A DNA stretch of 64,000 nt, taken from an uncultured Pelagibacteraceae bacterium (GTDB lineage: Bacteria; Pseudomonadota; Alphaproteobacteria; Pelagibacterales; Pelagibacteraceae). Of the stretch, positions 15,236 through 31,078 are shown piece by piece. A program made the translations under genes and the position numbers. The DNA lies in contig CACFLJ010000007.1 in NCBI GenBank assembly GCA_902567045.1, positions 512 through 64,511 on the forward strand, given 5' to 3'. The notes under the pieces are model-generated. The model was not told where the DNA came from. It was given only the letters and a program-made list of their open reading frames with translations, and ran no database searches. Within the stretch, counting starts at the first letter, position 1, and the number at the start of each line of letters is the position of its first letter.

Positions 15236-15799
15236 TTATTTAATTATTTTTGTAATTGATGGAATTATTGCCACTGCTAGAGCAATTTTGAATAATTCAC
15301 TTGGTAAAAAAGGATATAGACCACCAGCTAAAGCCTTTTCATAACCGATAACTGAGCCCAAATAACCCACTCCAACAATAAAAATAATAGAAGTTGCTAT
15401 CAAAAGAGAAATTAAACTTTTAATATAAGAGTCGTTAAAATTTCTTTCTGCTAAATAACCAACAATACCAGCTGCGATCGTCATTCCATAAAGATAGCCA
15501 GCAGTAGGACCTGTTAAATAAAGTAATCCACCGCCTTTTGCAAAAACTGGAAGTCCAATAGCTCCTTCGAAGAGATACAATACAAGTGTAAAAAACGCTA
15601 ACTTTGAACCAAATGTCATTCCAATAATAAAAACTGCAAAAGTTTGCATTGTCATTGGAACTGGCCAAAATGGAACTTGAACTTTTGACGAAAAGGCAAG
15701 GATAAGTGTACCTATTAACATCAAAGAAATATTCTGAAAATAAATATTTATTCTAAAATCAGATAATAAATTTTTAATCAAAGTAGAATTATTTTTCAT
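15236..15799 (-). CDS. bioY: Biotin transporter BioY
   Basis: PVPMTMQTF, EGAIGLPVFA, GPTAGYL. Confidence 0.92.
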   Translation of the reverse strand: MKNNSTLIKNLLSDFRINIYFQNISLMLIGTLILAFSSKVQVPFWPVPMTMQTFAVFIIGMTFGSKLAFFTLVLYLFEGAIGLPVFAKGGGLLYLTGPTAGYLYGMTIAAGIVGYLAERNFNDSYIKSLISLLIATSIIFIVGVGYLGSVIGYEKALAGGLYPFLPSELFKIALAVAIIPSITKIIK

Positions 15800-15855: not shown

Positions 15856-17883
15856 TTAATTAACCTGGTCTTTTTGTAATTCTTTTAGTGGTATGTGGCA
15901 TCTGATAGAGTTTCCGCTATTAGTTATTTGCCAAGGTGGTACTTCATTTTTACAAATATCACCTAATATTCTTGAACATCTCCCCTGAAAACTACACCCC
16001 TTTTGAGGTGGCTTTTCCTCTACAATATCCTCAGCAACTAATTTTGGTTTGATATCTGGATCTGGTTCTAACACGGCTCCTAATAAAACCTCTGTATAAG
16101 GGTGTGATGGAAATTGATAAACATCTTTTGATGGTCCCACTTCACACAATCTTCCTTGATAAAGAACAGCAACTCTATCACTTATAGCTCTTACAACAGC
16201 TAAATCATGTGAAACAAATATATATGTAGTTCCAAAATCTTCTTTAAGTTGTTGTAATAAATTTAATACAGCTGCCTGAACTGACACATCCAACGCAGAT
16301 GTTACTTCATCACATAATATTATATCTGGTTTAGCTGCAAAAGCTCTTGCAACTGCAACTCTCTGTTTTTCACCTCCAGATAATTGTCTAGGATACCTAG
16401 ACATATAAAATTCTCCAAGTCTTACTTTTTGTAATAGATCTATAATATTTTTTTTTAATTCTTCACCCTTTAAACCAAAATATAATTTTAATGGTTGCGC
16501 TATTATTTCTTCAACAGTATGGTTTGGGTTTAAAGACTCATCTGGATTTTGAAAAATTAATTGAATAATTCTTAAATCATTAGGATTTCTCTCTTTGAGG
16601 TCAGAGGATAAATTTCTATTTTGATCAAATTTTATTATTCCACCTTTGGTTCTGAGTAACCCAGCAATAGATTTAAGAATTGTTGACTTTCCACTACCTG
16701 ACTCTCCAACAAGAGCTATAGTTTCACCCTTCTTAATATTAATATTAATATCTTTTACAGTTGGATTATCGTCAGAAATTCTATTTAACACTTGATCTAA
16801 AAGTTTTTGCTTAGCGTAACTTATTGAAACTTCTGAAAGGTTTAATATTTCTTTATCTTGTAAACTCGTCTTAATTTTATTAACAGTTTGATTAACCTGA
16901 CTGTCATTCATTAAACTCTTATAATTAAAACATCTAACACTTGTGTTTAATTCTTCTAAGTACTCAAGTTGAGGAGAGTTATTTTTACATTTTTCTTCTG
17001 AAAAATCGCACCTATCAAAGAAACTGCAGCCTCTATGCATTGTTCCAGGTTGAGGTTGACTACCAGGCATTGATTGTGGAAGCCCTGCTAGTGATAATTT
17101 TGGTATAGATTTAAGCAAACCATAGGTATATGGATGAATTGGTTTTTTAAGAATATCTCTAGAGGGTCCCTCTAAAACTATTTCACCAGAGTACATTACA
17201 ATAATACGGTCACTTACTTGAGCTATTGCTCCTAAGTCATGACTCACATAAACCATTGATGTTCCAGTGTCTTTGGCAATGAAATTAAGCAGTTCTAAAA
17301 CGTGAGCTTGTGTTGTTACGTCTAAGCCAGTGGTAGGTTCGTCCAATAGTAAAAGGTCAGGAGTCCCAGCCAATGCCATTGCAACAGCAACTCTTTGTTG
17401 TTGTCCTCCTGAAAGTTCATGAGGATATCGAAGAGCAATTGTTTCTGGTGAAGGAAGTCTCACTTTATTTAACAATTCAGAAATTTTTTGCTCTCTTTCC
17501 TCCTCCTTTAAATCAGAATGCAACTGTAATGCCTCATCAATTTGATAACCTATTTTTAAATTTGGTGTTAATGCCTGCCCAGCATTTTGTGGTATCATTG
17601 CGATTTTCCTACCTCTGATTTTTTCCAAATCTCTATTTTTCATTTTTAAAAGATTTGAGGAATTGAATTCACATTCTCCACCAATAGTATAGAGACCATG
17701 TTTAACATACCCCATCATAGCTAATGCAAGAGTACTTTTTCCAGATCCAGACTCTCCAACAATACCAACAGTTTCGCCTTTTTTAATATTTGTGCTAATG
17801 TTTCTTAATATTAAAATCTCTTCTCCTTTTTTACTTTTAAATCCAATAGATAAATTTTTTACTTTTTGAATTATTTCAGTCAT
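15856..17883 (-). CDS. Dpp/Opp-type ABC ATPase, fused two-NBD protein
   Basis: Two GESGSGKST Walker A, two LSGG signatures, two HPYT + Cys-rich oligopeptide-ABC C-terminal motifs. Confidence 0.93.
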   Translation of the reverse strand: MTEIIQKVKNLSIGFKSKKGEEILILRNISTNIKKGETVGIVGESGSGKSTLALAMMGYVKHGLYTIGGECEFNSSNLLKMKNRDLEKIRGRKIAMIPQNAGQALTPNLKIGYQIDEALQLHSDLKEEEREQKISELLNKVRLPSPETIALRYPHELSGGQQQRVAVAMALAGTPDLLLLDEPTTGLDVTTQAHVLELLNFIAKDTGTSMVYVSHDLGAIAQVSDRIIVMYSGEIVLEGPSRDILKKPIHPYTYGLLKSIPKLSLAGLPQSMPGSQPQPGTMHRGCSFFDRCDFSEEKCKNNSPQLEYLEELNTSVRCFNYKSLMNDSQVNQTVNKIKTSLQDKEILNLSEVSISYAKQKLLDQVLNRISDDNPTVKDININIKKGETIALVGESGSGKSTILKSIAGLLRTKGGIIKFDQNRNLSSDLKERNPNDLRIIQLIFQNPDESLNPNHTVEEIIAQPLKLYFGLKGEELKKNIIDLLQKVRLGEFYMSRYPRQLSGGEKQRVAVARAFAAKPDIILCDEVTSALDVSVQAAVLNLLQQLKEDFGTTYIFVSHDLAVVRAISDRVAVLYQGRLCEVGPSKDVYQFPSHPYTEVLLGAVLEPDPDIKPKLVAEDIVEEKPPQKGCSFQGRCSRILGDICKNEVPPWQITNSGNSIRCHIPLKELQKDQVN

Positions 17884-17884
17884 T

Positions 17885-18778
17885 TTAAACTGGAGCTTTT
17901 GTTGATCTATCTATACCTAATGCTTTAGCAAAGGCATCGGCTGTCAAATTAATACCAATTATTAAGCTGCTTAAACCAACAATTGGAGCTATCACTGACC
18001 AATAAGCAAAAGACATTAAACCTCTGGCATTTGATATCATCAATCCCCAATCTGGAGTTGGAGGACTAACACCAAAACCTAGGAATGACAAAGAGCTGAA
18101 GCCAAGTAACATCCATGACCATCTCATTGCACCTTCCACTAAAATTGCATCTCTTACATTTGGAATTATTTCATTCCATATTATTGAAAAATTACTGTGT
18201 CCTCTTGCTCTAGCTGATACAATAAAATCTTTAGCAATTACATCATGAGTTGCAGCTCTTGCAACTCTAACAATTCCTTTACCATAAAAGAAACCCAATG
18301 CAGGTATTAGTACTTCAGTCGATGTACCTAATAAAGATACAATCAACAACATTGCTAATATCCAAGGTATAGATAAAAATGCATCAACAATCCTCATCAC
18401 TATATCGTCAGTTTTACCACCAACTAGTCCACAAAAAATTCCTAATAGACCACCCCAAAGTAGTGCTATTAAAGATCCAAAGAAAGTAACTGTTAAAGCT
18501 GTTCTTCCGCCTAAAATTGTTCTAGTAAAAACATCCCTTCCAAGATCATCAGTTCCAAACCAATATTCAGCAGAAGGAGCTTGTAGCATCAAAGTTGGGT
18601 TTATTGCTTTAAAATCATATGGCGCAATATAAGGGCTAATAAATGCAAGTATTACATGGAAAATCAATATACTTAACCCAATAAACCCTGATGGTCTTGA
18701 GGCCATTGTAATGATTATCTCAGAGACTTTTGCGAAATTACTTTTCTTTTCTTCCTGATAAATATTATCTAATTTCAT
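17885..18778 (-). CDS. Dpp/Opp-type ABC permease (DppC-like)
   Basis: FGTDDLGRD, FIVSARARG EAA loop, PPTPDWGLMI. Confidence 0.92.
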   Translation of the reverse strand: MKLDNIYQEEKKSNFAKVSEIIITMASRPSGFIGLSILIFHVILAFISPYIAPYDFKAINPTLMLQAPSAEYWFGTDDLGRDVFTRTILGGRTALTVTFFGSLIALLWGGLLGIFCGLVGGKTDDIVMRIVDAFLSIPWILAMLLIVSLLGTSTEVLIPALGFFYGKGIVRVARAATHDVIAKDFIVSARARGHSNFSIIWNEIIPNVRDAILVEGAMRWSWMLLGFSSLSFLGFGVSPPTPDWGLMISNARGLMSFAYWSVIAPIVGLSSLIIGINLTADAFAKALGIDRSTKAPV

Positions 18779-18779
18779 A

Positions 18780-19736
18780 TTATTTTCTTATCTGTAACGT
18801 TTTTAATCTTGGATTAAGCATCAATGTCATTAGATCTGCCAATAAATTTATACTAACATATATAGATGCAAGAATTATTGCTAAAGCTTGAACTGTTGGT
18901 AAATCTCTATTTGAAATAGACTCTATAACCAACCTTCCAAGACCAGGATAATTAAAGACAACCTCAGTTACAACAACACCACCTAAAAGCCATGCAATTG
19001 TTAGAGCTACAACATTAATCGCTGGTAACAATGCATTTGGTAAAACATGTTTAAAAACCATTTTCCAATATGGAACACCTTTTAAAATTGCCATTTGAAC
19101 ATACTCACTTGCCATAACTTGTATGACGCTTGATCTTACCATCCGCGCCATATGAGCTGTCATAATCATTGCAATAGCTATTACTGGTAAAATAATGTTT
19201 GGTAATAGTTCAAAGAATGAAACATCAGTTGGGACTATCACGATACCAGGTAACCACTCTAACCATATTGCAATTATTAAAATCAATAATGTAGCACTGA
19301 TAAACTCTGGAATAGTCATTGCAAATATAGTTACTGTTGAAATTGCTACGTCTGGCAATTTATCTCTCCAAAGGGCAGTTACTATTCCAAGTATTAGAGC
19401 GATTGGTATACCAATGAAAATAGCAGCTGATGCTAAAACTAATGAATTTTTAATACGTGGCCCTAGAACCTCTTTAATCGGCATTTCTCCACTCAATGAA
19501 TAACCAAAGTCTCCTTGAATAGCATTTACTGCCCAGGATACATATCTCTCATATGCAGGAACATTCAAACCTAATCTTCTATAACAAGCCTCTAATTGCT
19601 CTCCAAATGCTTGTCTTTCAAGATACGTTGTACATGCATCACCGGGTAAAATTTCTGTTCCAACAAAAGTGATTAATGATACAATAAATAAAGTTATTAG
19701 ACCTAATAGAATTCTCTTTATAATTAAAAAAAGCAT
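18780..19736 (-). CDS. Dpp/Opp-type ABC permease (DppB-like)
   Basis: GDFGYS, EYVQMAILKG, KHVLPNA, VFNYPGLG, RDLP. Confidence 0.92.
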   Translation of the reverse strand: MLFLIIKRILLGLITLFIVSLITFVGTEILPGDACTTYLERQAFGEQLEACYRRLGLNVPAYERYVSWAVNAIQGDFGYSLSGEMPIKEVLGPRIKNSLVLASAAIFIGIPIALILGIVTALWRDKLPDVAISTVTIFAMTIPEFISATLLILIIAIWLEWLPGIVIVPTDVSFFELLPNIILPVIAIAMIMTAHMARMVRSSVIQVMASEYVQMAILKGVPYWKMVFKHVLPNALLPAINVVALTIAWLLGGVVVTEVVFNYPGLGRLVIESISNRDLPTVQALAIILASIYVSINLLADLMTLMLNPRLKTLQIRK

Positions 19737-19779
19737 AAGAATACTTAAATTTTAAATTATTTATTTAGAAATGAAAGAG

Positions 19780-19811
19780 GTTTTACAGGCCTACTTAAAG
19801 GCCTGTAAAAC
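19780..19811 (-). terminator. 13-bp stem-loop between SBP and permease genes (mRNA stabiliser or partial terminator)
   Basis: GTTTTACAGGCCT-ACTTAA-AGGCCTGTAAAAC perfect inverted repeat just 3' of the SBP stop; only a weak U-tract follows. Confidence 0.75.
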
Positions 19812-19819
19812 AAAAATTA

Positions 19820-21307
19820 TTAGTCAACACTAACTGTGTGCCATCTTATTGAAAAATACTCAACTTCGTCGAGATTTTTTACTTTAGAAGATGTGACAAC
19901 CAATCTAGATACATGGTAAGGAATCATAGTTCCAGATTCTTCCCATAGTGTTTTCTGAGCATTGATATATGCAGCTTTTCTTTTACTGAAATTTAACTCA
20001 CCTCTAGCTTCAGCTAAATTTTTGTCAAAAGATGCACTTTTGTAGAAAGATTCATTCCATTTTGCTTCACTATGATAAGCTTCATGCAAAATACTGTCCG
20101 CAGGTCTCTCATTCCAACGTGTCATTGCTACAGGCTTTTTCATCCAAGTTTCATTCCAATAACTTTTTGAAGGTGTCATTTGAATATCTGCTCTTATGTT
20201 AGCTTTAGCAAATTGTTGTTGTAAAACCTCAGCAATAGTAGGCCATGTTGGTTCTTTTGTAGATACATGAATTGTGAAATCAATACCATCTGGATAACCT
20301 GCTTCTGCTAGTAGTTTTTTAGCAGTTGCATGTTGAGGTGGACACTTCTTTTTCATTCTGTATTGATCAGACGGGGCAACTGGAGTATCACAAGATACTG
20401 TTGCTGCTCCAGCCATAACTAAATCAACTAACTCTTGTCTATCTACAGCTATTCTGACAGCCTTTCTTACTCTAGGATCATCAAATGGTGCAACGTCAGT
20501 TCTCATTACCATACCTCTCCAGTTTCCTGTGGGTATCACTGATACATTGAATTTTGGATTACCATCAAATATTTTTTTCTGATTGAATGGAACATATCTA
20601 TTCATATCTATTTGACCAGTAAGCAAAGCTTGAATTCTAGCTTGACCATCTGGAATAGCTATTACTTGTACTTCAGCAAGTTTAGGTGCTCCTTCCCAAT
20701 AATCTGGGTTTGCTTTAAGTATTGTTGTTCCCTCAGCATCAAATTTTTCTACTATAAAAGGTCCTGTTCCAATTCCAGTTTTTCCAATAGTATCACCTGA
20801 TCCACTAGGTATCATTCTTAGTCTATAATCTGTCAGTAAAAGTGGAAAATCTGCAAAAGATGTATTCAACTTCATTTTAACTGTGTGTGAGTCTACAACC
20901 TCAATATCTGTTACTGCACTCATACTTTTCTTAGCAGGCGAACCAATTTCAGGATCTTTAACTCTCATCAAAGAGTATTTTACATCCTCTGCATCAAACT
21001 CAGATCCATCATGGAATTTAACACCTTTTCTTAAGTTAAAAGTCCATTCTGTTGCATCTGCATTTCCTGACCAGTCTGTTGCTAGCTCAGGCGATGTAAC
21101 CCCTTTAAGATCTTTTCTAACCAGACGGTTCTGTGTCATGATAACTACCTGAAACAGTCGTCCTTTAGTAATTGCGTCTAAATTTGTATCTTTTCCAAAA
21201 CCAACATCATGGGATAATTTAAAAACACCGCTTGATGCATTGGCAAAAGAAAATGTTACAAATAGTGATACCAATGAAATTGATATCAATTTAAAAATGT
21301 TTTTCAT
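19820..21307 (-). CDS. Family 5 (peptide/nickel-type) ABC solute-binding protein
   Basis: Signal peptide; PELATDW, WTFNLRKGVKFHDGS.FDAEDV, GTGPF, PFDDPRVRKA; SD GAGG upstream. Confidence 0.93.
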   Translation of the reverse strand: MKNIFKLISISLVSLFVTFSFANASSGVFKLSHDVGFGKDTNLDAITKGRLFQVVIMTQNRLVRKDLKGVTSPELATDWSGNADATEWTFNLRKGVKFHDGSEFDAEDVKYSLMRVKDPEIGSPAKKSMSAVTDIEVVDSHTVKMKLNTSFADFPLLLTDYRLRMIPSGSGDTIGKTGIGTGPFIVEKFDAEGTTILKANPDYWEGAPKLAEVQVIAIPDGQARIQALLTGQIDMNRYVPFNQKKIFDGNPKFNVSVIPTGNWRGMVMRTDVAPFDDPRVRKAVRIAVDRQELVDLVMAGAATVSCDTPVAPSDQYRMKKKCPPQHATAKKLLAEAGYPDGIDFTIHVSTKEPTWPTIAEVLQQQFAKANIRADIQMTPSKSYWNETWMKKPVAMTRWNERPADSILHEAYHSEAKWNESFYKSASFDKNLAEARGELNFSKRKAAYINAQKTLWEESGTMIPYHVSRLVVTSSKVKNLDEVEYFSIRWHTVSVD

Positions 21308-21422
21308 AATTTCCTCTCTTTAAAAAAATAAAAGGTAACAATTAGCAACTTATATAGCAACAGTGAAAATGGTTCTTTTTTATTTGTTTTATTGATGTAT
21401 TTTGATTATTTAAAAAACAATA

Positions 21423-22652
21423 ATGAAAGATTTAATCAATAAATATAGGTTTACAGTTAAACCTGTTAGCCTTGAAAATTCTAACTCTTTGGAGCTCGCA
21501 AGGTCAATTCAAGTTCATCCACTAACATACCAAGAGCTGCCATATGACCCTGAATATTCTAATTATGCAGGAAGATTAACACTTGAGAAATTGTCAAATG
21601 TTAGTCCTGAAGAAATGTATTGGAAAGGAAGGCAAGAAATAATATTTAGACATACTGGTGAACATCCATTTGAAATATCTGGTCCAGATTCATTAAAGTT
21701 ATTACAAAAAATATTTCCAAGAGATGTATCTAAAATATCAAAAGGAAGATGCTCTTATCAGTTTGCTTGTTATCATGATGGAGGAATGATTACAGATGGA
21801 GTTCTATTAAAAATTGACGAAGATAAATACTGGTTTGCTCAAGCAGATGGGGATCTTTTTTCTTGGTACAAAGCTCACTCTAAAAATATGGATGTTGAAA
21901 TAAAAGATCCTGAGGTATGGGTAAGTCAAATACAAGGTCCTTTATCAATGAAACTATTAGAAAATATTGCAGATAGATTTTCTGAAAATGACTGGAAATA
22001 TTTTGATTGGAAAGAATTACAAATCTTAGATCAAAAAGTAATTGTAAGTCGAAGTGGTTTTACAAATGAGCTAGGTTGGGAAATTTATTTCAGACCCGAA
22101 AATGAAACTGAAAAAATTGGAGATTACATTCTTGAAGAGGGAAAAAAATTAGGTATGATTTTAGTAGCCACTCCGGGTTTTAGATGTAGAAGAATTGAGG
22201 CAGGACTACTATCTGCAGGACAAGACTTTTCAAAAAAAACAGATCCATTTTCAGTTGGCCTTGGACGATTTATAAATTTTGATAAAGAGGATTTTATTGG
22301 AAAAGAAGCTCTAATGAAATCAGATAGAAAATGTAAGACATGGGGCATTAGAGTAGTAGATGGAACAGCTCTCAAAGGAGAAAGTATCAAAATTAATGAA
22401 AAAAATATTGGCAGGATCACCTCAAGCACCTGGTCACCATATCAAATTTGTGGTGTTGGTATCGTTCACCTTGATAATAATGAAAATGGCCCAGGAGATG
22501 TTGTAGATGTTAAATGCACTGATGGAAAAGTACATAAAGGAGAAATCTGTAAATTGCCAATGTATGATGCAAAAGGAGAAATTGTTAGAGGTATAAATAG
22601 GAATATTCCTAAACAGCCAAATCCTTGGCCTGGCATTAAAACCAAAAATTAA
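21423..22652 (+). CDS. GcvT-family aminomethyltransferase/demethylase-like protein, divergent subfamily
   Basis: EISGPDS, GGMITDG, QIQGP, SRSGFTNELGWEIY, RRIEAG, DFIGKEAL. Confidence 0.85.
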   Translation: MKDLINKYRFTVKPVSLENSNSLELARSIQVHPLTYQELPYDPEYSNYAGRLTLEKLSNVSPEEMYWKGRQEIIFRHTGEHPFEISGPDSLKLLQKIFPRDVSKISKGRCSYQFACYHDGGMITDGVLLKIDEDKYWFAQADGDLFSWYKAHSKNMDVEIKDPEVWVSQIQGPLSMKLLENIADRFSENDWKYFDWKELQILDQKVIVSRSGFTNELGWEIYFRPENETEKIGDYILEEGKKLGMILVATPGFRCRRIEAGLLSAGQDFSKKTDPFSVGLGRFINFDKEDFIGKEALMKSDRKCKTWGIRVVDGTALKGESIKINEKNIGRITSSTWSPYQICGVGIVHLDNNENGPGDVVDVKCTDGKVHKGEICKLPMYDAKGEIVRGINRNIPKQPNPWPGIKTKN

Positions 22653-22665
22653 AAAGCTTTAGTTT

Positions 22666-23358
22666 GTGAAGAGTAAAAAACAAATAATAGCAATTGGAGG
22701 TGGAGGTTTCACTCATAATGAAGATAGCGATTTAGATCAATTTTTTTTAGATCAAATTAGTAAAAAAAACTGCTCTATAGGATTTTTACCAACTGCTAGT
22801 AATGATGATTCCAGAAAAACTGAACTATTCTATAAAAGATTTAAAAATACTAACTTTAAAGTTTCTCATTTCAATCTTGTCTCCAGCGTTAAGGGTTTTG
22901 AAAACTGGATTTCAAATTTAGATGCTATTTATGTTGGTGGAGGAAATACTAAATTCGTGCTCGATTTATGGAAAAAAAATAATTTATTTGAAATTTTTAA
23001 AGAAATTTATTATTCAGGAATAATTCTTTCTGGTGTAAGTGCTGGGGCTGCATGTTGGTTTGATTATTTTCTGACAGACTCAGATGGACCTGGCTTCAAA
23101 CCATTACGTGGCATAGGGCTTATATCTGGAAGTTTTACTCCACATTATTCAGATGCAAAAAGAGCAGAAAAATACAGAGAAAATATAAAAAATAAAACTT
23201 TACCTAGTGGTGTAGCTGTAGATGATGGAGTTGCAGTACTTTTTATTGACGGAAAACCAACTGAGGTTTATTCTTCCAGAGAAAGTCATAATGCTTATTT
23301 TGTTAATCAAAATAAACAAATTAATTTAAAAGAATATATTAAAATTAATAATGAGTGA
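22666..23358 (+). CDS. Peptidase E (S51)-like protein
   Basis: FLPTAS, YVGGGNT, nucleophile GVSAGA, PHY; GTG start. Confidence 0.85.
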   Translation: MKSKKQIIAIGGGGFTHNEDSDLDQFFLDQISKKNCSIGFLPTASNDDSRKTELFYKRFKNTNFKVSHFNLVSSVKGFENWISNLDAIYVGGGNTKFVLDLWKKNNLFEIFKEIYYSGIILSGVSAGAACWFDYFLTDSDGPGFKPLRGIGLISGSFTPHYSDAKRAEKYRENIKNKTLPSGVAVDDGVAVLFIDGKPTEVYSSRESHNAYFVNQNKQINLKEYIKINNE

Positions 23359-24514
23359 TAATATTTTACCAAGTCAAAAAATTTTTAGCATTAAAGATGC
23401 AAGGGAACTGTCACGTAAACGTCTACCTAAATTAGTTTTTGATTTTATTGATGGTGCATCAGGAGATGAAAAATTAGCAGAAATAAATAGCAGAGCTTTA
23501 GATCAAATTAGACTTGAACCTAAAGTTTTAAGAAATGTTGAAAAAAGATCTCTTAAAAAAAAAGTATTAGGGTATGAATTTGATTTTCCATTTGGTTTTG
23601 CTCCAATGGGAATGACTAATTTATCATGGCCTGGGGCAGACTCTATGTTAGCAGCTGAAAGTGCGAGAAACAATATACCTACTTGTGTTTCTATGGCTTC
23701 TACAACAACTTTAGAAAAAATGTATGAACTTTCAGAAGGTCACTCATGGATGCAGCTGTATATATTTCAGGATGAAAATTTTGTTATGGAACTTTTAGAT
23801 AGAGCTAAGAATACAGGATACGAAGTTGCAATATTAACTGTGGATGTCCCAGTACTATCCAGACGAACTAGAGATGATAAAAATGGTTTCTCCTACCCTT
23901 TCAAGATTGGTCCAAAACAATTTTTTGATTTTGCAACTCATCCTACTTGGTCTTTATCGACTTTGCTAAGCGGCATTCCTAAACCAATGAACTATGTTAC
24001 ATCTAAAAGTGGAGATGGTATTTTTAAAAGAAAAGAAAGTAGAGGCTCTACAGATTGGGATACACTTAAAAGAGTAAGAGATAAATGGAAGGGTAAACTT
24101 ATAATTAAAGGAGTAATGTCTCCTGATGATGCAAAACAAATAAAAGAAGCTGGTGCAGATGCAATTCAAGTTTCAAATCATGGTGGTAGACAATTAGATA
24201 GTGCTACAGCAGCTATAAATATGCTTCCACTAATCAGAAAATCAGTAGGAAACGATTTTCCTTTAATTTTTGATAGTGGAATAAGAAGTGGAAGTGATAT
24301 TGTAAGAGCACTTGCATTTGGTGCTGATTATGCAATGATTGGTAGACCCGTGATGTATGCAATGGGAGCTGATGGAAAAAAGGGATTAAGGAGAATTGTG
24401 GAAATAATCAAAGAAGAAGCCAGCACAACACTTGGGTTAGTAGGATTAAACGATATTAATGATGTAACTTCTAATATAGTAATAGATAGTACTGTAAATA
24501 AGGTAAATTACTAA
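23351..24514 (+). CDS. FMN-dependent alpha-hydroxy-acid dehydrogenase (LldD/mandelate DH family)
   Basis: FDFIDG, LTVDVP, SNHGGRQLD, DSGIRSGSD. Confidence 0.92.
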   Translation: MSDNILPSQKIFSIKDARELSRKRLPKLVFDFIDGASGDEKLAEINSRALDQIRLEPKVLRNVEKRSLKKKVLGYEFDFPFGFAPMGMTNLSWPGADSMLAAESARNNIPTCVSMASTTTLEKMYELSEGHSWMQLYIFQDENFVMELLDRAKNTGYEVAILTVDVPVLSRRTRDDKNGFSYPFKIGPKQFFDFATHPTWSLSTLLSGIPKPMNYVTSKSGDGIFKRKESRGSTDWDTLKRVRDKWKGKLIIKGVMSPDDAKQIKEAGADAIQVSNHGGRQLDSATAAINMLPLIRKSVGNDFPLIFDSGIRSGSDIVRALAFGADYAMIGRPVMYAMGADGKKGLRRIVEIIKEEASTTLGLVGLNDINDVTSNIVIDSTVNKVNY

Positions 24515-26257
24515 ATGAGTGAAAACAAAATTAGAGGTGGAGCATTACTTGCGAGAGCTCTAAAAGACAAAGGAATTAGCAAAGTTTTCACCCTTTCGGG
24601 AGGTTTTTGCAATCCTGCAATTGAAGGTTTTGCCGAATGCCAAATTGAAGTCATAAACACTCCTCATGAGCAGATTGCAGGTCATTTAGCAGATGGTAAT
24701 ACAAGAATCACTCGTAAACCATCGGTATGTTTAGTTGGACCCGAAGGATTTACAAATGCTGTCCCTTCAATGATGGAAGCTTGGGGTGAGAGAAGTCCCA
24801 TTATTTACATTACAGGATCTAGCAGTCTTAAAAGACAAGGTTCAGGTGGTTTTAAAGAAATTGACGATGTTTCAATTGCAGCCCCTTTAACTAAATACAG
24901 CGCAAGTATTACTGATGGAACTAGAATAAGAGAATTTGTAGACAAAGCATATCATATTGCAACTAATGGATATCCTGGCGCTGTACATCTTAGTCTTCCA
25001 GTTGATATAATGTTTTCATCTTTTGAAGAGGAAGTTGGTTTAGAAGAAAGACCATATTCTCAAAAAGCAAAACCTATAGCCAAAGCGTGGCCGGATCCAA
25101 AGGCACTTTCAGAAGTCTTAGAACTTGCTTGTAATTCAAAAAAACCAGTTATCATTGGTGGACACGGTGTTTGGTGGTCACATTCAGAAAAAAATCTTGA
25201 GGCAGCAGGTAATAATTTAAATATACCAATTTTTAATGTCCCATATCATCAAAAATTATTAGGAGAAGAAGCTAACGCTTATATGGGCTTAGCTGATATA
25301 CATCAATATCCTCCTTCAGAATTTGCATTACAAAATTCAGATCTGGTTCTTGTAGTTGGAGCACGATTAGATAATCAACTAAATTTTGGAAATCCACCTT
25401 TTATACCAGAAACAACAAAATTAGTTTGTGTGAATGGTTCACATGAAGAATTAGAACTTAATAGAGCTGCAGATTTTAGTTTACTAAGTGATCCTGGTGT
25501 TTTTTTAGATACATTATCCAACTTAAAAAAAAATAATAAGTGGTCTTTAAATACAAATTGGTTTGAAGAGAATAAAAAAAAGAAGAAAGAATGGGTAGAT
25601 AAATCATTAAAAGATTTAGAAATTGAAGCTGAAGCATCTAAAAAAAATGGAGGAAAAATTCACCCTCTACAACTTTCATTGGATGTTCAAGATGCAATGG
25701 GTGAAAATGATTGGCTTGTTATCGATGGAGGAAACACTCATTTTTGGTCAGAGATTGCAATCAATATCGCGGGTGCTAAAGGAAAAAAATTAAAAGGAAT
25801 ATTACATCCTGGAACTTTTAGCATGTTAGGTGTAGGGGTTTCATTCGCTTTATCTGCTAAAAACCACAGTCCAGATTCAAATGTAGTTCTGATTAGTGGA
25901 GATGGTGCGTTTTTATCAGGAGGTATGTCTATTGAAAGTGTATTTTATGAAAAAAAACCTATTACTGTTGTAATCGATAATAACGGGGGTCTTGCTTCAA
26001 TTGGCCAACAACAAGAAAGGTTATTTAAAAGTGGAAAAAGTGTAGGAACTGATTTTCGTGATATACCATTTCATAAGATATTTGAGGGTTTTGGAGGACA
26101 TGGAGAATTAGTTAATAAAAGAGAAGAATTAGGCCCAGCACTTAAAAGAGCTTTAGAAAGTGGAAAACCAGCATGCGTAAATGTTAAAGCAAAACCTGTA
26201 TTAAGCCCAATAGTCTCTGCAGTTGCAAGTAAAAGAGAGAAATCATCAATAGAATAA
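24515..26257 (+). CDS. ThDP-dependent enzyme (acetolactate synthase / 2-hydroxyacyl-CoA lyase-like)
   Basis: HEQ catalytic Glu, GDGAF...DNNGG ThDP-binding motif. Confidence 0.9.
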   Translation: MSENKIRGGALLARALKDKGISKVFTLSGGFCNPAIEGFAECQIEVINTPHEQIAGHLADGNTRITRKPSVCLVGPEGFTNAVPSMMEAWGERSPIIYITGSSSLKRQGSGGFKEIDDVSIAAPLTKYSASITDGTRIREFVDKAYHIATNGYPGAVHLSLPVDIMFSSFEEEVGLEERPYSQKAKPIAKAWPDPKALSEVLELACNSKKPVIIGGHGVWWSHSEKNLEAAGNNLNIPIFNVPYHQKLLGEEANAYMGLADIHQYPPSEFALQNSDLVLVVGARLDNQLNFGNPPFIPETTKLVCVNGSHEELELNRAADFSLLSDPGVFLDTLSNLKKNNKWSLNTNWFEENKKKKKEWVDKSLKDLEIEAEASKKNGGKIHPLQLSLDVQDAMGENDWLVIDGGNTHFWSEIAINIAGAKGKKLKGILHPGTFSMLGVGVSFALSAKNHSPDSNVVLISGDGAFLSGGMSIESVFYEKKPITVVIDNNGGLASIGQQQERLFKSGKSVGTDFRDIPFHKIFEGFGGHGELVNKREELGPALKRALESGKPACVNVKAKPVLSPIVSAVASKREKSSIE

Positions 26258-26259
26258 TT

Positions 26260-26595
26260 GTGGCAACTTTCTCTTCTCATTTATTAGATGCAACAAATGG
26301 CTCGCACGCTGCAAATGTTGATGTAATTATTTATCAAGTTTATGAAAGTGGAGAAAAAAAAGTTTTTTTTGAAACTAAATCTGATGAAGGTGGTCGAATA
26401 CTTCAAGAATTTGAATTAAGTAAAGACGACTGCAAGTGTGATTACGAAATGGTTTGTAAAACTGGCAATTATTTTTCAGAAAAAAAAATAGTTTCAGAAA
26501 TTAACATTAAATTTAAAATGGAAGATCAAAATAAAAAATATCATATCCCAATTATAATTTCTAAAAATAGCTATACAGTTTGGTGGTCTAAATAA
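26260..26595 (+). CDS. Transthyretin-like protein (5-hydroxyisourate hydrolase fold) with variant C-terminus
   Basis: SSHLLDATNG, GGR, YHIP present; ends YTVWWSK instead of YRGS; GTG start. Confidence 0.8.
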   Translation: MATFSSHLLDATNGSHAANVDVIIYQVYESGEKKVFFETKSDEGGRILQEFELSKDDCKCDYEMVCKTGNYFSEKKIVSEINIKFKMEDQNKKYHIPIIISKNSYTVWWSK

Positions 26596-26596
26596 A

Positions 26597-27763
26597 ATGA
26601 GTAAAGAAAATTTAATTCCTCAAAAAAATATAAAATTAAATATGTCTAGACGTATCAGACGTACTCCATTTACAAATAAAGTAGAGGAATGTGGTGTGTC
26701 AGATTTTACTGTAGTTAATCATATGCTACTGCCAAAAGGTTTTAAAAATACCGTTGAAGAAGATTACTGGCATTTAAGAGAAAATGTTCAAGTTTGGGAT
26801 GTGTCTTGTCAAAGACAAGTACAAATTACAGGTCCAGATGCTGAAAAACTTGTACAAAAAATGACACCCCGATCTATAAAAAAAATGGAAACCGGTAAAT
26901 GTTTTTATATTCCAATAATTGATGAAACAGCCGGTATGATTAACGATCCAGTTTTATTAAAGCTAGATGATGATATGTTTTGGATTTCAATTGCAGATTC
27001 AGATATTTTACTTTGGGCAAAAGGTATTGCATTAGGATCAAAATTAAATGTAGAAATTATTGAACCAGATGTTTATCCACTAGCTATTCAGGGTCCTAAA
27101 TCTGAAGATCTTTTAATTTCAATTTTTGGTGAGGATATAAAAAAATTAAAATTTTTTAATTTTAAAGTATTTGATTTTTTAGGAACCAAACAAATTATTG
27201 CTAGATCGGGATATAGTAAACAAGATGGTTTTGAAATATATTTTAAAGGATTTGAAACGCACTTTAATGAAATAGAGCTTGGAGAAAAACTTTGGGATAC
27301 CGTGTGGGAGAATGGACAAAAATTTAATATTTCTCCAGGATGCCCAAATTTAATTGATAGAATTGAGGCTGGTTTGATGTCCTATGGAAATGATTTTACA
27401 AGAGAAAATAATCCATTGGAGTGTAATCTTGAAAAATATTGCAAACAGGAAGATGATCATGATTTTATAGGTAAAGAAGCTTTAAGAAAGATCCAATCAG
27501 ATGGAATAGCTCAAAAAATGAGAGGAATATTGTTTGATGGAGACCCATGCAAGCCAACGGGGGTGCCCCTTCCAGTATATTCAAAAGATAATACAAAAAT
27601 TGGCCAAATTGCTTCTGGAATTTATTCTCCAAGATTTAAAAAGAATATAGGTCTTTCTATGATTTTGAAAGATTACTGGGAAATTGGAAATGAAGTTTTT
27701 GTAAATACTTTCAATGGAAAAAACAGAAAAGGCATTATAACTTCTTTACCATTTCCAGATTAA
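26597..27763 (+). CDS. dmdA: DMSP demethylase-like protein (DmdA clade of GcvT family)
   Basis: SRRIRRTPF, NHMLLP, VQVWDVSCQRQV, WISIADSD, ARSGYSKQ, GCPNLIDRIE, SYGNDF all match DmdA as I recall it. Confidence 0.78.
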   Translation: MSKENLIPQKNIKLNMSRRIRRTPFTNKVEECGVSDFTVVNHMLLPKGFKNTVEEDYWHLRENVQVWDVSCQRQVQITGPDAEKLVQKMTPRSIKKMETGKCFYIPIIDETAGMINDPVLLKLDDDMFWISIADSDILLWAKGIALGSKLNVEIIEPDVYPLAIQGPKSEDLLISIFGEDIKKLKFFNFKVFDFLGTKQIIARSGYSKQDGFEIYFKGFETHFNEIELGEKLWDTVWENGQKFNISPGCPNLIDRIEAGLMSYGNDFTRENNPLECNLEKYCKQEDDHDFIGKEALRKIQSDGIAQKMRGILFDGDPCKPTGVPLPVYSKDNTKIGQIASGIYSPRFKKNIGLSMILKDYWEIGNEVFVNTFNGKNRKGIITSLPFPD

Positions 27764-27779
27764 CCTTATATTTATCATT

Positions 27780-28904
27780 ATGTTTAAACCTGTTATTGCC
27801 GGCTTCTCAAGATCACCTTTCACGATGGCAAGAAAAGGTGCGCTCATTGATATTAAGCCAGTAAATTTATTAGCAGAGGTGATTAAAAATTTAGTTTCTA
27901 AATCCAATGTTAAAAAAGAGGATATTGAGGATATTGTTGTAGGTTGCGCATTCCAAACTGGAGAGCAGTCATTTAATATTGGAAAGCTAACAACATTTTT
28001 GACTAATATGGATGTCAAAACTTCAGGAATGACAGTTGATAGATGGTGTGGTTCTTCAATGGAAGCTATTCATATCGCTGCAGGTAAAATTTCATTAGGT
28101 GCAGGAAAAGTATTTATATGTGGAGGAGTTGAAAGTATGACCAGAGTTAATACAGGATTTGACCCGATACCTTATCCTGAAAATAAAAATGATAATCCTC
28201 ATGTGTATTTTTCAATGGGGACTACTGCTGAAAATGTTGCTAAGAAATATGATATCTCAAGAAGTGAACAACAGGAGTTTGCGATCTCAAGTCATCAAAA
28301 AGCACATGAAGCTCAAACAAAAGGAAAATTTAAAAATGAAATAGTATCTATTGGAGATTGTGATACCGATGGAAATATTAGACCAGGTAGCACAATGGAA
28401 AAATTAGATGGATTAAAACTTGCATTTGATGAAAATGGTACTGTTACAGCAGCAACTTCTTCACCTTTGACCGATGGTGCAGCTGCAACATTAATTTGCG
28501 AAGAAAATTATGCAAAAGAAAATAATTTAAATATTTTGGGAAGAATTGTGTCTACAGCAGTACAAGGTTGTGACCCTGACTATATGGGATTAGGTCCAAT
28601 TGGAGCATCAAGAAAAGCTTTGGAGAGAGCTAATTTGTCAGCGGATAAAGTTGATATTGTTGAATTAAATGAGGCTTTCGCTTCACAATCCTTAGCGTGT
28701 ATTAAAGATTTAGGTATAGACAAAGATAAAGTTAATTTAGATGGTGGAGCACTTGCCCTTGGCCATCCTCTTGGAGCAACAGGCGCAAGAATTACAGGTA
28801 AGGCTGCTGAATTACTTCAAAGAGAAAATAAAAAGTATGCTTTATCTACTCAATGTATTGGGTTAGGTATGGGAATTGCTACAGTAATCGAGTCTGTAAA
28901 CTAA
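27780..28904 (+). CDS. Thiolase (acetyl-CoA C-acyltransferase)
   Basis: WCGSS nucleophile, ELNEAFA, GHPLGATG, CIGLG. Confidence 0.93.
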   Translation: MFKPVIAGFSRSPFTMARKGALIDIKPVNLLAEVIKNLVSKSNVKKEDIEDIVVGCAFQTGEQSFNIGKLTTFLTNMDVKTSGMTVDRWCGSSMEAIHIAAGKISLGAGKVFICGGVESMTRVNTGFDPIPYPENKNDNPHVYFSMGTTAENVAKKYDISRSEQQEFAISSHQKAHEAQTKGKFKNEIVSIGDCDTDGNIRPGSTMEKLDGLKLAFDENGTVTAATSSPLTDGAAATLICEENYAKENNLNILGRIVSTAVQGCDPDYMGLGPIGASRKALERANLSADKVDIVELNEAFASQSLACIKDLGIDKDKVNLDGGALALGHPLGATGARITGKAAELLQRENKKYALSTQCIGLGMGIATVIESVN

Positions 28905-28905
28905 A

Positions 28906-29760
28906 CTATCTATTTATTCCTCTTAATCTTTCAGATCTTCTTCTTAAAAGCTCAGCTGTAACTAAAATTAATATTGATAAAACAATTAAACATGTTGCTA
29001 CAGCTAAAATTGTGGGACTAAGTTGTTCTCTAAGACCAGTCCACATTTGAACTGGTATTGTAGTATTATCTAAGCCAGCTAAGAATAATACAACCACTAC
29101 TTCATCGAAAGATGTAACAAATGCAAATAAACCGCCAGAAATAACACCAGGTAGTATTAGTGGTAAGGTAATTTTCATAAATGTATTAAAAGGATTGCTA
29201 CCTAAACTAGATGCAGCTCGAGTTATGCTATGGTCAAAACCTGAAAGTGTTGCAGTGACTGTGATTACGACAAATGGAGTTCCCAGTATGATATGTGCTA
29301 AAATTATACCTAAGTGTGTGGCAGCCAATCCTACTTTCGCCATGAAAAAGAAAATTGCGACACCTGAAATAATTAAAGGAACGATCATTGGAGATATTAA
29401 AGTTGCCATTATCAAACCTTTGTAAGGCATATGTCTGCTACTCAAACCTAAAGCAGCTAATGTTCCAAGTATAATTGAACCAATGGTTGCAAATATTGCA
29501 ATTATAAAACTATTTTTTGCAGCTAAGCCCCAAGGGTTTTTAGTTCCATAGACCATATCTTTGTACCATCTGGTAGAAAAAGCATCCGGGTCTAGTCTCT
29601 TCATTCCATCTGTAAATACTAAAAATTCCTCAGCGTTAAAAGATAATGGAAAAATTACAAATAAAGGAGCGATTAAAAAGAAAAATACACATCCACAAAT
29701 AAAAAGATAAAAATAATGCCATATTCTATAATGAGGTTCTGTATATTTTGGTAAAGCCAT
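28906..29760 (-). CDS. potC: PotC-like ABC permease
   Basis: RAASSLG EAA loop, FVTSFDEVVV. Confidence 0.85.
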   Translation of the reverse strand: MALPKYTEPHYRIWHYFYLFICGCVFFFLIAPLFVIFPLSFNAEEFLVFTDGMKRLDPDAFSTRWYKDMVYGTKNPWGLAAKNSFIIAIFATIGSIILGTLAALGLSSRHMPYKGLIMATLISPMIVPLIISGVAIFFFMAKVGLAATHLGIILAHIILGTPFVVITVTATLSGFDHSITRAASSLGSNPFNTFMKITLPLILPGVISGGLFAFVTSFDEVVVVLFLAGLDNTTIPVQMWTGLREQLSPTILAVATCLIVLSILILVTAELLRRRSERLRGINR

Positions 29761-29762
29761 AT

Positions 29763-31013: not shown

Positions 31014-31042
31014 AAAAAAAGGGCGGTTGTAGTAACCGCCCT
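31014..31042 (-). terminator. Intrinsic terminator-like hairpin between potD and potB
   Basis: GGGCGGTT-GTAGT-AACCGCCC stem followed on the minus strand by T7 that abuts the potB ATG. Confidence 0.85.
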
Positions 31043-31078
31043 AAATATAATATAAAATTAAAGTGTTTAAAACTCTAA

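What the first reader, a model, noticed from the sequence alone, without database searches (positions are those of the whole stretch)
21423..28904. Seven-gene operon around a DmdA-like demethylase: candidate uncharacterised methyl-sulfonium / 2-hydroxy-acid pathway
Seen: seven co-oriented genes with gaps of about 15 bp or less, or overlaps. The order is divergent GcvT, peptidase E, FMN 2-hydroxy-acid dehydrogenase, ThDP enzyme, variant transthyretin, DmdA-like, thiolase, transcribed divergently from a family-5 ABC importer. Known: DmdA is the THF-dependent DMSP demethylase and its classical partners are DmdB (CoA ligase) and DmdC (acyl-CoA dehydrogenase); neither is in this window. Inference: 2-hydroxy-acid oxidation plus ThDP C1 cleavage plus S-demethylation is the chemistry needed to funnel a 2-hydroxy sulfonium acid such as 4-dimethylsulfonio-2-hydroxybutyrate (algal DMSP precursor), or its methylthio analogue, into the DMSP/MMPA pool. 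I know of no described pathway with this gene set.
Basis: partly seen in the sequence, partly recalled or inferred. Interest (0 to 1): 0.8.

Follow-up and report, generated by a model that had tools for sequence, protein, structure and literature searches.

The report
Orphan pathway around second DmdA
Many ocean SAR11 bacteria and other marine bacteria carry a conserved four-gene block that joins a second, altered copy of the DMSP-demethylating enzyme to a flavin dehydrogenase, a thiamine enzyme and a modified transthyretin-like protein, and it likely breaks down an unidentified methylated sulfur acid other than DMSP, which would mean that some genes counted as DMSP breakdown do a different job.

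Summary
The seven genes are real and tightly packed (gaps 13, -8, 0, 2, 1, 16 bp), but they are not one unit. The conserved core is four genes: lldD-like, ThDP enzyme, transthyretin-like (WWS), DmdA paralogue. It occurs in 65 of 297 Pelagibacter-genus genomes. The ThDP gene also occurs in 18 of 401 genomes of a distant alphaproteobacterial family, mostly with the same neighbours. The thiolase is a passenger: two relatives lack the block and have fadB and thiolase 104 and 129 bp apart. The importer and peptidase belong to the block. This DmdA forms its own branch with an invariant Tyr32-to-Val change, and 29 of 30 genomes examined also hold an ordinary dmdA; this genome has dmdC-dmdB-dmdA on another contig. 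The ThDP enzyme lacks the acid/base residues of 2-hydroxyacyl-CoA lyases. CoA ligase and aldehyde dehydrogenase rarely lie near the block. Best reading (0.5): a CoA-free route that demethylates, oxidises and decarboxylates a methyl-sulfonium 2-hydroxy acid. DMSHB is one candidate (about 0.2); no substrate is shown. No description turned up in 10 paper searches; key older dmdA papers were unavailable. This scan reported the same block earlier on other genomes.

The parts
15236..15799 (-). BioY-like membrane protein (label by eye); present in the block only in some SAR11 lineages
   Evidence: (absent from the 87%-identity lineage L102-L114)
15856..19736 (-). Family-5 (Dpp-type) ABC importer: fused ATPase and two permeases; accessory part of the block
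   Evidence: absent from the empty sites in G001 and G006
19820..21307 (-). Family-5 solute-binding protein (dppA-like), ligand unknown
   Evidence: Pfam SBP_bac_5. Next to the core in 69 of 69 SAR11 loci long enough to show it and, at 50% identity or more, in 7 of 16 wide loci of family f9
21423..22652 (+). Divergent GcvT-family folate-binding protein, likely a second methyl-removing enzyme; accessory, SAR11-specific
   Evidence: Close orthologue in 9 of 36 same-genus genomes; only 33-36% identical relatives in 6 of 18 f9 genomes
22666..23358 (+). Peptidase S51 (PepE-like) with Ser125 and His160 kept; accessory, travels with the Dpp importer
   Evidence: 73 of 73 SAR11 loci; 6 of 16 wide f9 loci
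23351..24514 (+). Core gene 1: FMN 2-hydroxy-acid dehydrogenase, mandelate-dehydrogenase-like; Phe32 where solved relatives have Tyr
   Evidence: upstream of the ThDP gene in 78 of 87 loci
24515..26257 (+). Core gene 2: ThDP enzyme of an unnamed subfamily (HACL/benzaldehyde-lyase fold; Phe31, Glu77, Lys114, C-terminal Ser-Ile-Glu)
26260..26595 (+). Core gene 3: transthyretin/HIU-hydrolase fold; His7, Arg46, His95 invariant; C-terminal Trp-Trp-Ser in place of the HIUase signature
   Evidence: downstream of the ThDP gene in 86 of 87 loci
26597..27763 (+). Core gene 4: DmdA paralogue ('DmdA2'), its own branch of the DmdA family, with Val for Tyr32 and Gln for Glu63 (3TFH numbering)
   Evidence: follows the transthyretin-like gene in 72 of 76 loci
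27780..28904 (+). Thiolase: host gene at the right edge of the insertion site, partner of fadB; not part of the module
12942..15164 (-). FadB-like 3-hydroxyacyl-CoA dehydrogenase: host gene at the left edge of the insertion site

Best explanation
The four core genes form a conserved block that likely encodes a CoA-independent catabolic route for a methyl-sulfonium 2-hydroxy acid that is not DMSP itself. Predicted order: (1) the substrate enters through the Dpp-type importer, probably as an amide or peptide conjugate that the S51 peptidase opens, or in other lineages as a free acid through a TRAP importer; (2) DmdA2 moves an S-methyl group to tetrahydrofolate, giving a stable methylthio 2-hydroxy acid; (3) the FMN enzyme oxidises C2 to the 2-oxo acid; (4) the ThDP enzyme removes CO2; (5) the WWS transthyretin-like protein hydrolyses or converts a labile intermediate beside the ThDP step. 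Shown: gene content, order, conservation, empty insertion site, paralogy and residue changes. Inferred: every reaction, their order and the substrate. Within this reading, DMSHB (giving MTHB, MTOB, then methionine or methional and MMPA for the genome's own DmdB/DmdC) is about 0.2. A three-carbon analogue whose 2-oxo acid loses methanethiol on ThDP is about 0.12, and some other sulfonium hydroxy acid makes up the rest.
For: Core order is kept across lineages. Of 87 loci with a ThDP orthologue of 55% identity or more, the transthyretin-like gene follows in 86 of 87, DmdA2 in 72 of 76 and lldD precedes in 78 of 87, counting only loci with enough flank. Outside SAR11-like loci the counts are 45 of 46, 38 of 42 and 36 of 45. 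DmdA2 coexists with an ordinary dmdA in 29 of 30 genomes examined. It is one side of a branch (87/93 in a 39-row tree; SH 97 in a 90-row tree) and has Val32 in 63 of 63 against Tyr32 in 27 of 27 ordinary copies, while most family positions are shared. The dehydrogenase keeps Tyr137 and Arg172 (78 of 78) and the His277/Arg280 motif, and has small Gly87 (78 of 78) and Ala116 (71 of 78) as in mandelate dehydrogenase. A DmdB-like CoA ligase lies within the fetched flanks in 2 of 103 loci and an aldehyde dehydrogenase in 3 of 103. Extra methyl-removing enzymes recur beside the core: GcvT1, a homocysteine S-methyltransferase in 7 loci, MttB in 5. So do other 2-hydroxy/2-oxo-acid oxidoreductases: ApbA-like 8, D-2-hydroxyacid dehydrogenase 6, Ldh_2 4. 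The alternative TRAP binding protein keeps the Arg that aligns with the sialic-acid-binder Arg in 8 of 8. The sister ThDP clade sits beside choline sulfatase, choline-dehydrogenase-like and ProX-like genes. Four seawater RNA libraries hold contigs over the whole block.
Against: No enzyme was assayed and no ligand is known. DmdA2 passes the DmdA equivalog cut-off and falls in an unresolved three-way fork with the SAR11-type and the f9-type ordinary DmdAs, so DMSP activity may simply be retained. Gln63 also occurs in 3 of 27 ordinary copies. The structural role of Tyr32 could not be checked (structure paper not held; no coordinates available). G834 has DmdA2 as its only copy above the cut-off. 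The ThDP + transthyretin pair occurs without DmdA2 in 4 of 76 loci and without lldD in 9 of 87. For DMSHB, the recalled D configuration clashes with an L-specific flavin family, and no D-specific dehydrogenase is in this window's block. Many loci are close kin, so the counts overstate independence; many metagenome flanks are short, so 'rarely near' is a weak negative. RNA contigs show presence in RNA libraries, not level, strand or co-transcription.
Confidence: 0.5

Rival explanations
1. The substrate is methylated on nitrogen or oxygen rather than sulfur (a betaine-type hydroxy acid, or an O-methyl amino-acid conjugate such as a mycosporine-like compound); DmdA2 has changed the atom it demethylates.
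For: A peptide-type importer and a peptidase travel with the core in two distant lineages. MttB methyltransferases recur beside it. Relatives of the ThDP enzyme and of GcvT1 sit in choline/betaine-type clusters. Val32 and Gln63 set DmdA2 apart.
Against: DmdA2 scores 533 bits on the DmdA model but 48 and 46 on the LigM and DesA O-demethylase models, and it nests within the DmdA family. Direct methyl transfer from a quaternary amine to folate is not known to me for this family (recalled).
Confidence: 0.2
2. DmdA2 is an ordinary DMSP demethylase, and the other three enzymes feed it: DMSHB is oxidised and decarboxylated to DMSP-aldehyde, then oxidised to DMSP by a housekeeping aldehyde dehydrogenase.
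For: Above the equivalog cut-off; most conserved DmdA positions are shared. DmdB and DmdC are in the genome. DmdA2 is followed by a crotonase in two loci and lies near a DmdB-like gene in one. DmdAs only 35-40% identical to the reference enzymes restored methanethiol release (PMC10746254, passages).
Against: A streamlined genome would then hold two enzymes for one reaction in 29 of 30 cases. Val32 is invariant. The 2-oxo sulfonium intermediate is expected to lose DMS spontaneously (chemical inference). No aldehyde dehydrogenase travels with the block.
Confidence: 0.18
3. The ThDP enzyme is a 2-hydroxyacyl-CoA lyase that cleaves a CoA ester to formyl-CoA, working with the flanking fadB and thiolase (for example on gonyol-derived acyl-CoAs).
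For: The best solved relatives by sequence and fold are HACL/HACS enzymes (TM 0.86 to AcHACL). fadB and thiolase flank the block here, and a thiolase or fadB lies near the ThDP gene in four non-SAR11 loci (L116, L143, L187, L219).
Against: Score 241 against a cut-off of 600. Lys114 stands where HACLs have the conserved Gln, no Glu aligns with AcHACL Glu493, and Phe31 replaces the His seen in outgroup proteins. An upstream dehydrogenase would remove the 2-hydroxyl that HACL needs. fadB and thiolase exist without the block.
Confidence: 0.06
4. The genes are unrelated passengers of a variable region, or a purine-degradation fragment with an ordinary hydroxyisourate hydrolase.
For: Public sources name the small protein hydroxyisourate hydrolase and its catalytic His/Arg/His are kept. 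The block sits in a transporter-rich region.
Against: The same four-gene order recurs in different genomic settings at about 61-69% ThDP identity. No uricase or OHCU decarboxylase family match in this 86% complete genome. The HIUase C-terminal signature is replaced.
Confidence: 0.06

Closest known systems
DMSP demethylation pathway (DmdA, DmdB, DmdC, DmdD/AcuH) of 'Ca. Pelagibacter ubique' HTCC1062 and Ruegeria pomeroyi DSS-3
   Same: DmdA-family folate-dependent demethylase above the NCBIfam cut-off; same hosts; this genome has the ordinary dmdC-dmdB-dmdA cluster on C1.
   Different: The window copy is a paralogue (393 bits to 3TFH against 667 for the C1 copy; 47% identical to it), on its own branch, with Val32, and is joined to a dehydrogenase, a ThDP enzyme and a transthyretin-like protein instead of CoA enzymes.
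Mandelate pathway of Pseudomonas putida (MdlA racemase, MdlB FMN (S)-mandelate dehydrogenase, MdlC ThDP decarboxylase, MdlD aldehyde dehydrogenase; pathway recalled)
   Same: Adjacent FMN 2-hydroxy-acid dehydrogenase and ThDP enzyme; MdlB (6BFG) is the best single-domain solved relative of the dehydrogenase, 252 bits.
   Different: No racemase or aldehyde dehydrogenase in the block; the ThDP enzyme is of another subfamily; a demethylase and a transthyretin-like protein are added.
2-Hydroxyacyl-CoA lyases (AcHACL 7PT1, ApbHACS 8VZA) and benzaldehyde lyase (2AG0)
   Same: Fold (TM 0.81-0.86), ThDP-binding motif and activating Glu52.
   Different: About 25-27% identity; Lys for the conserved Gln, no Glu at the E493 position, Phe for the His; conserved C-terminal Ser-Ile-Glu; no CoA ligase partner.
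5-Hydroxyisourate hydrolase (transthyretin-related protein)
   Same: Fold (TM 0.83-0.85 to 8UW4 and 4Q14) and invariant His7, Arg46, His95.
   Different: C-terminal Trp-Trp-Ser instead of the Tyr-Arg-Gly-Ser signature (signature recalled; only its Tyr is visible); below the TIGR02962 cut-off; no urate-pathway partners found.
Sulfolactate route SlcD-ComDE-Xsc (recalled, not tested)
   Same: Logic of oxidising a sulfur-substituted 2-hydroxy acid with an FMN enzyme and then acting on it with ThDP, including loss of the sulfur group on ThDP in Xsc.
   Different: The window enzyme scores only 185 bits on Xsc models (cut-offs 620 and 676); the sulfur here would be methylated, not a sulfonate.

Membership tests
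DmdA (PRK12486 equivalog) | Score above the curated cut-off | tested here: met
   533 bits vs 410
DmdA (PRK12486 equivalog) | Orthologue of the characterised P. ubique enzyme (3TFH) | tested here: not met
   The C1 copy is the orthologue (667 bits, colinear); the window copy scores 393 and lies on a separate branch, 87/93
DmdA (PRK12486 equivalog) | Positions conserved in ordinary DmdAs are kept | tested here: inconclusive
   Most are shared (e.g. R11, Y95, D108, S122, E204, Y206); Tyr32 is Val in 63 of 63, Glu63 is Gln in 63 of 63; their roles could not be read from the structure paper
DmdA (PRK12486 equivalog) | Methyl transfer from DMSP to tetrahydrofolate | not testable with these tools
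   Needs assay or complementation
DMSP demethylation gene cluster | dmdB and dmdC beside dmdA | tested here: not met
   None in the window; DmdB-like ligase in 2 of 103 loci around ThDP homologues
dmdA subclade C/2 (defined by qPCR primers) | Match to primers 291F/482R | tested here: inconclusive
   Primers from PMC10076866. SAR11-like module copies average 8.0 mismatches to C/2 and 15.4 to D/1 (n=29); ordinary SAR11 copies 13.5 and 8.2 (n=13). The window copy has 11 and 10, so it fits neither pair; the best fit in the set was 5 mismatches
5-Hydroxyisourate hydrolase | Transthyretin fold with catalytic His, Arg, His | tested here: met
5-Hydroxyisourate hydrolase | C-terminal Tyr-Arg-Gly-Ser and score above TIGR02962 cut-off | tested here: not met
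   Trp108 and Ser110 invariant in 63 sequences; 70.2 vs 87.45 bits
5-Hydroxyisourate hydrolase | Uricase and OHCU decarboxylase in the genome | tested here: not met
   PF01014 and PF09349 not found; genome 86% complete; other urate oxidase types were not searched
2-Hydroxyacyl-CoA lyase | ThDP motif, activating Glu and fold | tested here: met
2-Hydroxyacyl-CoA lyase | Active-site Gln (Q128) and acid/base Glu (E493) described for AcHACL | tested here: not met
   Residues from PMC8760513 (passages). Lys114 aligns with the Gln of ApbHACS (the N-terminal part was not aligned to AcHACL directly); Gly497/Gln498 align with position 493; NF058623 241 vs 600
L-lactate dehydrogenase LldD / lactate oxidase | Score above equivalog cut-offs | tested here: not met
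   281/376, 237/550, 182/645.5
FMN 2-hydroxy-acid dehydrogenase family | Catalytic His/Arg, second Arg and Tyr | tested here: met
   His277, Arg280, Arg172, Tyr137 kept; the first Tyr is Phe in 68 of 78
Mandelate pathway | Racemase and aldehyde dehydrogenase with the dehydrogenase/decarboxylase pair | tested here: not met
   Aldehyde dehydrogenase in 3 of 103 loci; no racemase among the recurrent neighbour families scanned
Dipeptidase PepE | Score above NF003642 cut-off; Asp-X specificity | tested here: not met
   36 vs 156 bits; S51 family membership is met; specificity not testable

The most novel reading that the evidence does not exclude
The block is a complete, CoA-free second route from an algal methyl-sulfonium acid to methyl-folate, CO2, methanethiol and a two-carbon unit. 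DmdA2 demethylates a 2-hydroxy analogue of DMSP; the FMN enzyme makes the 2-oxo acid; a new Lys-bearing ThDP subfamily decarboxylates it and expels the sulfur group by beta-elimination, as Xsc does with sulfite; and the WWS transthyretin releases the acyl product. A whole branch of genes now counted as 'dmdA' in ocean surveys would then report an unrecognised organosulfur metabolite.
Probability: 0.12. Interest if true: 0.88.

Novelty: new variant of a known kind. Interest (0 to 1): 0.63.

Why it matters
dmdA counts are the standard proxy for DMSP demethylation in the sea. This branch passes the curated DmdA cut-off and its neighbouring ThDP gene is in about a fifth of Pelagibacter-genus genomes sampled (65 of 297), nearly always alongside an ordinary dmdA. 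If it acts on another compound, those counts include a different flux. A field study found subclade C/2 clustering apart from the other dmdA subclades (PMC7370799, passages), which would fit if this branch is clade C. Bacteria are reported to use DMSP analogues by unidentified pathways (PMC7221440, passages). The block also offers two enzyme subfamilies with no solved or named member in the libraries searched, and near-complete genomes of a family with culturable members carry it, so the question can be tested directly.

Tried and rejected
Complex prediction of the ThDP enzyme with the transthyretin-like protein gave no answer (score 0.00, controls not run); it is not used for or against binding. 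Promoter and terminator scans were at chance level. A plasmid search found no orthologue of the ThDP enzyme (best 28.9% among the 25 rows listed of 1322 records, all under 60%). The ESM Atlas returned only generic names. The ligand of the Dpp and TRAP binding proteins could not be read from solved relatives. Contig depth over dppA was about tenfold above its neighbours in all four RNA runs, but the tool says contig depth cannot rank genes, so it is not used. The claim that this copy is 'the C/2 gene' was tested with primers and is inconclusive for the window copy. The thiolase, fadB, the polyamine-type ABC system, the ilvE-like gene beyond the thiolase and the two window aldehyde dehydrogenases are treated as host genes: thiolase, fadB, pot genes and an aldehyde dehydrogenase are present at the empty sites. 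The first 90-row GcvT tree ended as a quick tree with long-branch warnings and was replaced. Paper searches found no description of the block: no paper held dmdA + transthyretin + thiamine, and only one held three of five context terms. Seven relevant papers were not held, among them Gonzalez 2019, Schuller 2012, Reisch 2008, Reisch 2011 and Varaljay 2010 and 2012; they or their supplements may mention these neighbours or a test of a clade C enzyme. The red-algal 2-methoxy sulfonium acids and the D configuration of DMSHB are recalled; the search for them returned nothing relevant in its listing.

Full report
Setting. The window is contig C7 of a 1.18 Mb, 86% complete genome. The 80 best genome loci for the ThDP protein (87-99% identical) are all titled Pelagibacteraceae, Pelagibacterales or Ca. 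Pelagibacter, so the host is a SAR11 bacterium.

Observation. The seven ORFs are at the stated coordinates, with gaps of 13, -8, 0, 2, 1 and 16 bp and a 115 bp gap to the divergent dppA. Pfam and NCBIfam confirm the family calls. Only the DmdA-like protein (533 vs 410) and the thiolase pass a curated NCBIfam cut-off. DmdB and DmdC have no match in the window, but both are on contig C1 directly upstream of a second dmdA. That C1 protein is the orthologue of the solved P. ubique enzyme (667 bits, colinear); the window copy scores 393 and is 47% identical to it.

The real unit. Among the 80 close SAR11 loci, every neighbour from dppA to thiolase is present wherever the locus is long enough (69 of 69 to 78 of 78), but these are near kin. 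Wider sampling separates core from passengers. The ThDP orthologue is in 10 of 36 same-genus genomes and 0 of 24 of the other family, and in 65 of 297 same-genus genomes of 80% completeness or more, with 0 of 103 in other genera of the order. It is in 1 of 400 other Pseudomonadota drawn across the phylum, and in 18 of 401 genomes of that hit's family, f9, a very large alphaproteobacterial family that I take to be Rhodobacteraceae (inference). Named homologues include Pelagibius and Arenicellales proteins. I fetched up to 10 kb around the f9 hits and 80 metagenome loci and clustered the neighbours. Of 103 loci, 6 held more distant ThDP clades (36-51%) and were set aside. In the remaining 97, counting only those with enough flank, the transthyretin-like gene follows the ThDP gene in 86 of 87, DmdA2 follows in 72 of 76, and lldD precedes in 78 of 87; outside SAR11-like loci the counts are 45 of 46, 38 of 42 and 36 of 45. 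dppA and the peptidase are next to the core in 7 and 6 of 16 wide f9 loci; close GcvT1 and thiolase homologues in 0 of 16. The thiolase occurs in 13 of 36 same-genus genomes. In G006 and G001 it faces away from fadB at 104 and 129 bp with nothing between. The block from about 15165 to 27779 therefore occupies the gap between a host fadB and thiolase. GC content matches the host and I saw no integrase among its ORFs, so gain versus loss is not settled.

DmdA2. Of 30 genomes with a module DmdA that I searched, 29 have a second copy above the cut-off: 15 of 16 f9, 8 of 8 plus 5 of 5 SAR11, and this genome; G834 is the exception. Module copies are one side of a branch (SH 97, 90 rows, FastTree; 87/93, 39 rows, IQ-TREE LG+G4), in an open fork with the SAR11-type and f9-type ordinary copies. 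Position 32 (3TFH numbering) is Tyr in 27 of 27 ordinary and Val in 63 of 63 module copies; position 63 is Glu in 24 of 27 and Gln in 63 of 63. I infer an altered substrate pocket but could not check this on a structure. A review states that shared residues with GcvT are mainly folate-binding and that DmdA is specific for DMSP and close relatives (PMC5395565, section 11). A 2023 list of ratified DmdAs names nine proteins, none from HTCC7211 (PMC10746254, supplement 2 part 10); I could not tell whether any of them belongs to this branch. Published C/2 primers fit SAR11-like module copies better than ordinary ones (8.0 vs 13.5 mismatches) and D/1 primers the reverse (15.4 vs 8.2), but the window copy has 11 and 10 mismatches. 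The branch is probably clade C in the broad sense; this copy would likely be missed by both primer pairs.

Dehydrogenase. The best single-domain solved relative is (S)-mandelate dehydrogenase (252 bits; the two higher rows are tandem fusions of lactate oxidase). Tyr137, Arg172 and Gly87 are in 78 of 78 module copies, Ala116 in 71, and the His277-Arg280 motif is in the consensus. The Tyr found in solved relatives at position 32 is Phe in 68 of 78. This suggests a 2-hydroxy acid bulkier than lactate (inference from recalled structure-function work).

ThDP enzyme. It defines a compact subfamily. In the 50% cluster library the best full-length representatives are 63%, 46% and 36% identical, then 34% and below. 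The model is confident (pLDDT 93.6) and matches HACL, benzaldehyde lyase and oxalyl-CoA decarboxylase (TM 0.80-0.86). The cofactor motif and Glu52 are intact. Family marks are Phe31, Glu77, Lys114 and a C-terminal Ser-Ile-Glu. AcHACL uses His44, Thr88, Gln128 and Glu493 (PMC8760513, passages). Here Lys114 aligns with the equivalent Gln of ApbHACS and Gly497/Gln498 with position 493. With a dehydrogenase upstream and a CoA ligase in only 2 of 103 loci, a free 2-oxo acid is the more likely substrate. The 36-37% sister clade lies beside choline sulfatase (above cut-off), choline-dehydrogenase-like, ProX-like and DmdA-like genes in G750, which hints that the wider family works on onium compounds.

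Transthyretin-like protein. The fold is confirmed (pLDDT 95.3, TM 0.85 to HIU hydrolase). His7, Arg46, His95, Trp108 and Ser110 are invariant in 63 sequences. It is the only family member in the genome, and no uricase or OHCU decarboxylase family match was found. It is the most constant partner of the ThDP gene. I infer an enzyme acting next to the ThDP step; its reaction is unexplained.

Accessory genes. Recurrent neighbours include extra methyl-removing enzymes (homocysteine S-methyltransferase 7 loci, MttB 5), other 2-hydroxy/2-oxo-acid oxidoreductases (ApbA-like 8, D-specific 6, Ldh_2 4), LysR regulators (18) and a TRAP importer (8) whose binding protein keeps the conserved Arg. In one lineage, genes that look like folD and formate-THF ligase by eye lie upstream (not scanned).

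Expression. Seventeen seawater RNA runs hold 45-63% of the sampled words (16 are from one year and may be one campaign). I laid 4 of them; all 30 bins from 15000 to 31000 had cover in each. This shows presence in RNA libraries only; no silent control stretch was laid.

Mechanism. Taken together the anatomy fits demethylation to folate, oxidation at C2 and ThDP decarboxylation of a methyl-sulfonium 2-hydroxy acid without CoA (0.5). Demethylation first is chemically sensible, because a 2-oxo acid with a sulfonium two carbons from the ketone would tend to lose DMS (inference), and it gives a reason for a dedicated paralogue. DMSHB is the known metabolite that fits best (it is the algal DMSP precursor: PMC5395565 and PMC13360808, passages), but the recalled D configuration, the missing aldehyde dehydrogenase, the peptidase and the transthyretin-like protein are not explained. 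A three-carbon analogue with loss of methanethiol on ThDP would explain the missing aldehyde dehydrogenase and acid residues, but I know such a compound only as a recalled red-algal 2-methoxy derivative. The rivals are an N- or O-methyl substrate (0.2), plain DMSP demethylation fed by the trio (0.18), an HACL route (0.06) and chance or purine breakdown (0.06).

Novelty. Each protein belongs to a known superfamily, and the logic resembles the mandelate pathway joined to DmdA, so I file it as a new variant of a known kind. Ten paper searches found no description (listed under Tried and rejected). The passages I read of a 2026 review of DMSP cycling give only DmdABCD/AcuH for demethylation. Several older dmdA papers were unavailable. 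Papers were seen only as search listings or passages, except one full section and one supplement part. Earlier agents of this scan reported the same block on other genomes; I re-tested conservation, the empty site and paralogy independently, and my primer test only partly agrees with their C/2 assignment.

Noticed in passing
window 24515-26257, residues 494-497 and 509-511 of the ThDP enzyme: This genome's copy differs from the family consensus in the helix after the cofactor motif (Ala-Ser-Ile-Gly for Asp-Cys-Ile-Ser) and at 509-511 (Ser509 in 2 of 87, Gly511 in 2 of 87). It may mark a lineage-specific change near the active site.
   Followed up: partly
L158:3477-9068 and L159:7081-16114 (G750): Two 36-37% sister-clade ThDP genes sit beside choline-dehydrogenase-like oxidoreductases, choline sulfatase, a ProX-type importer, a divergent DmdA-like gene and a crotonase; possibly another undescribed onium pathway.
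   Followed up: partly
L116:9765-13196 (G256): A decayed copy of the module: truncated ThDP gene and broken transthyretin-like gene, followed by a split thiolase and a 3-hydroxyacyl-CoA dehydrogenase-like gene.
   Followed up: partly
L307:2448-18807 and L308:2952-18396 (G552, G687): The nearest f9 relatives of GcvT1 (about 35%) occur in pairs in a cluster with a ProX-type importer, a GMC oxidoreductase, a BetI-like regulator and a 780-800 aa protein that looks like a molybdopterin oxidoreductase (labels by eye; not scanned).
   Followed up: no
G000:C17:215-1294 (L121:176-1321): A third DmdA-like paralogue just under the cut-off (380 vs 410 bits); similar sub-threshold copies occur in many genomes.
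   Followed up: no
L162, L163, L165, L166: A 50% identical ThDP clade without any module gene nearby, among luciferase-like monooxygenase and GMC genes typical of SAR202-type genomes (inference by eye).
   Followed up: no
window 47120-63737: A betaine/carnitine-type catabolic region: ProX-type importer, dioxygenase-like, luciferase-like, carnitine-dehydrogenase-like, TauD-like and choline-dehydrogenase-like ORFs (labels from N-terminal sequence by eye; not scanned).
   Followed up: no
window 28906-35344: Polyamine-type ABC importer followed by DoeA-like and EutA-like genes, both below their NCBIfam cut-offs (446/613 and 196/318); present at the empty sites too.
   Followed up: partly
L117:2909-5725, L119:48-2615: In two SAR11 genomes the TRAP importer that accompanies the module in f9 genomes lies just beyond the thiolase, so these genomes hold both importers.
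   Followed up: partly
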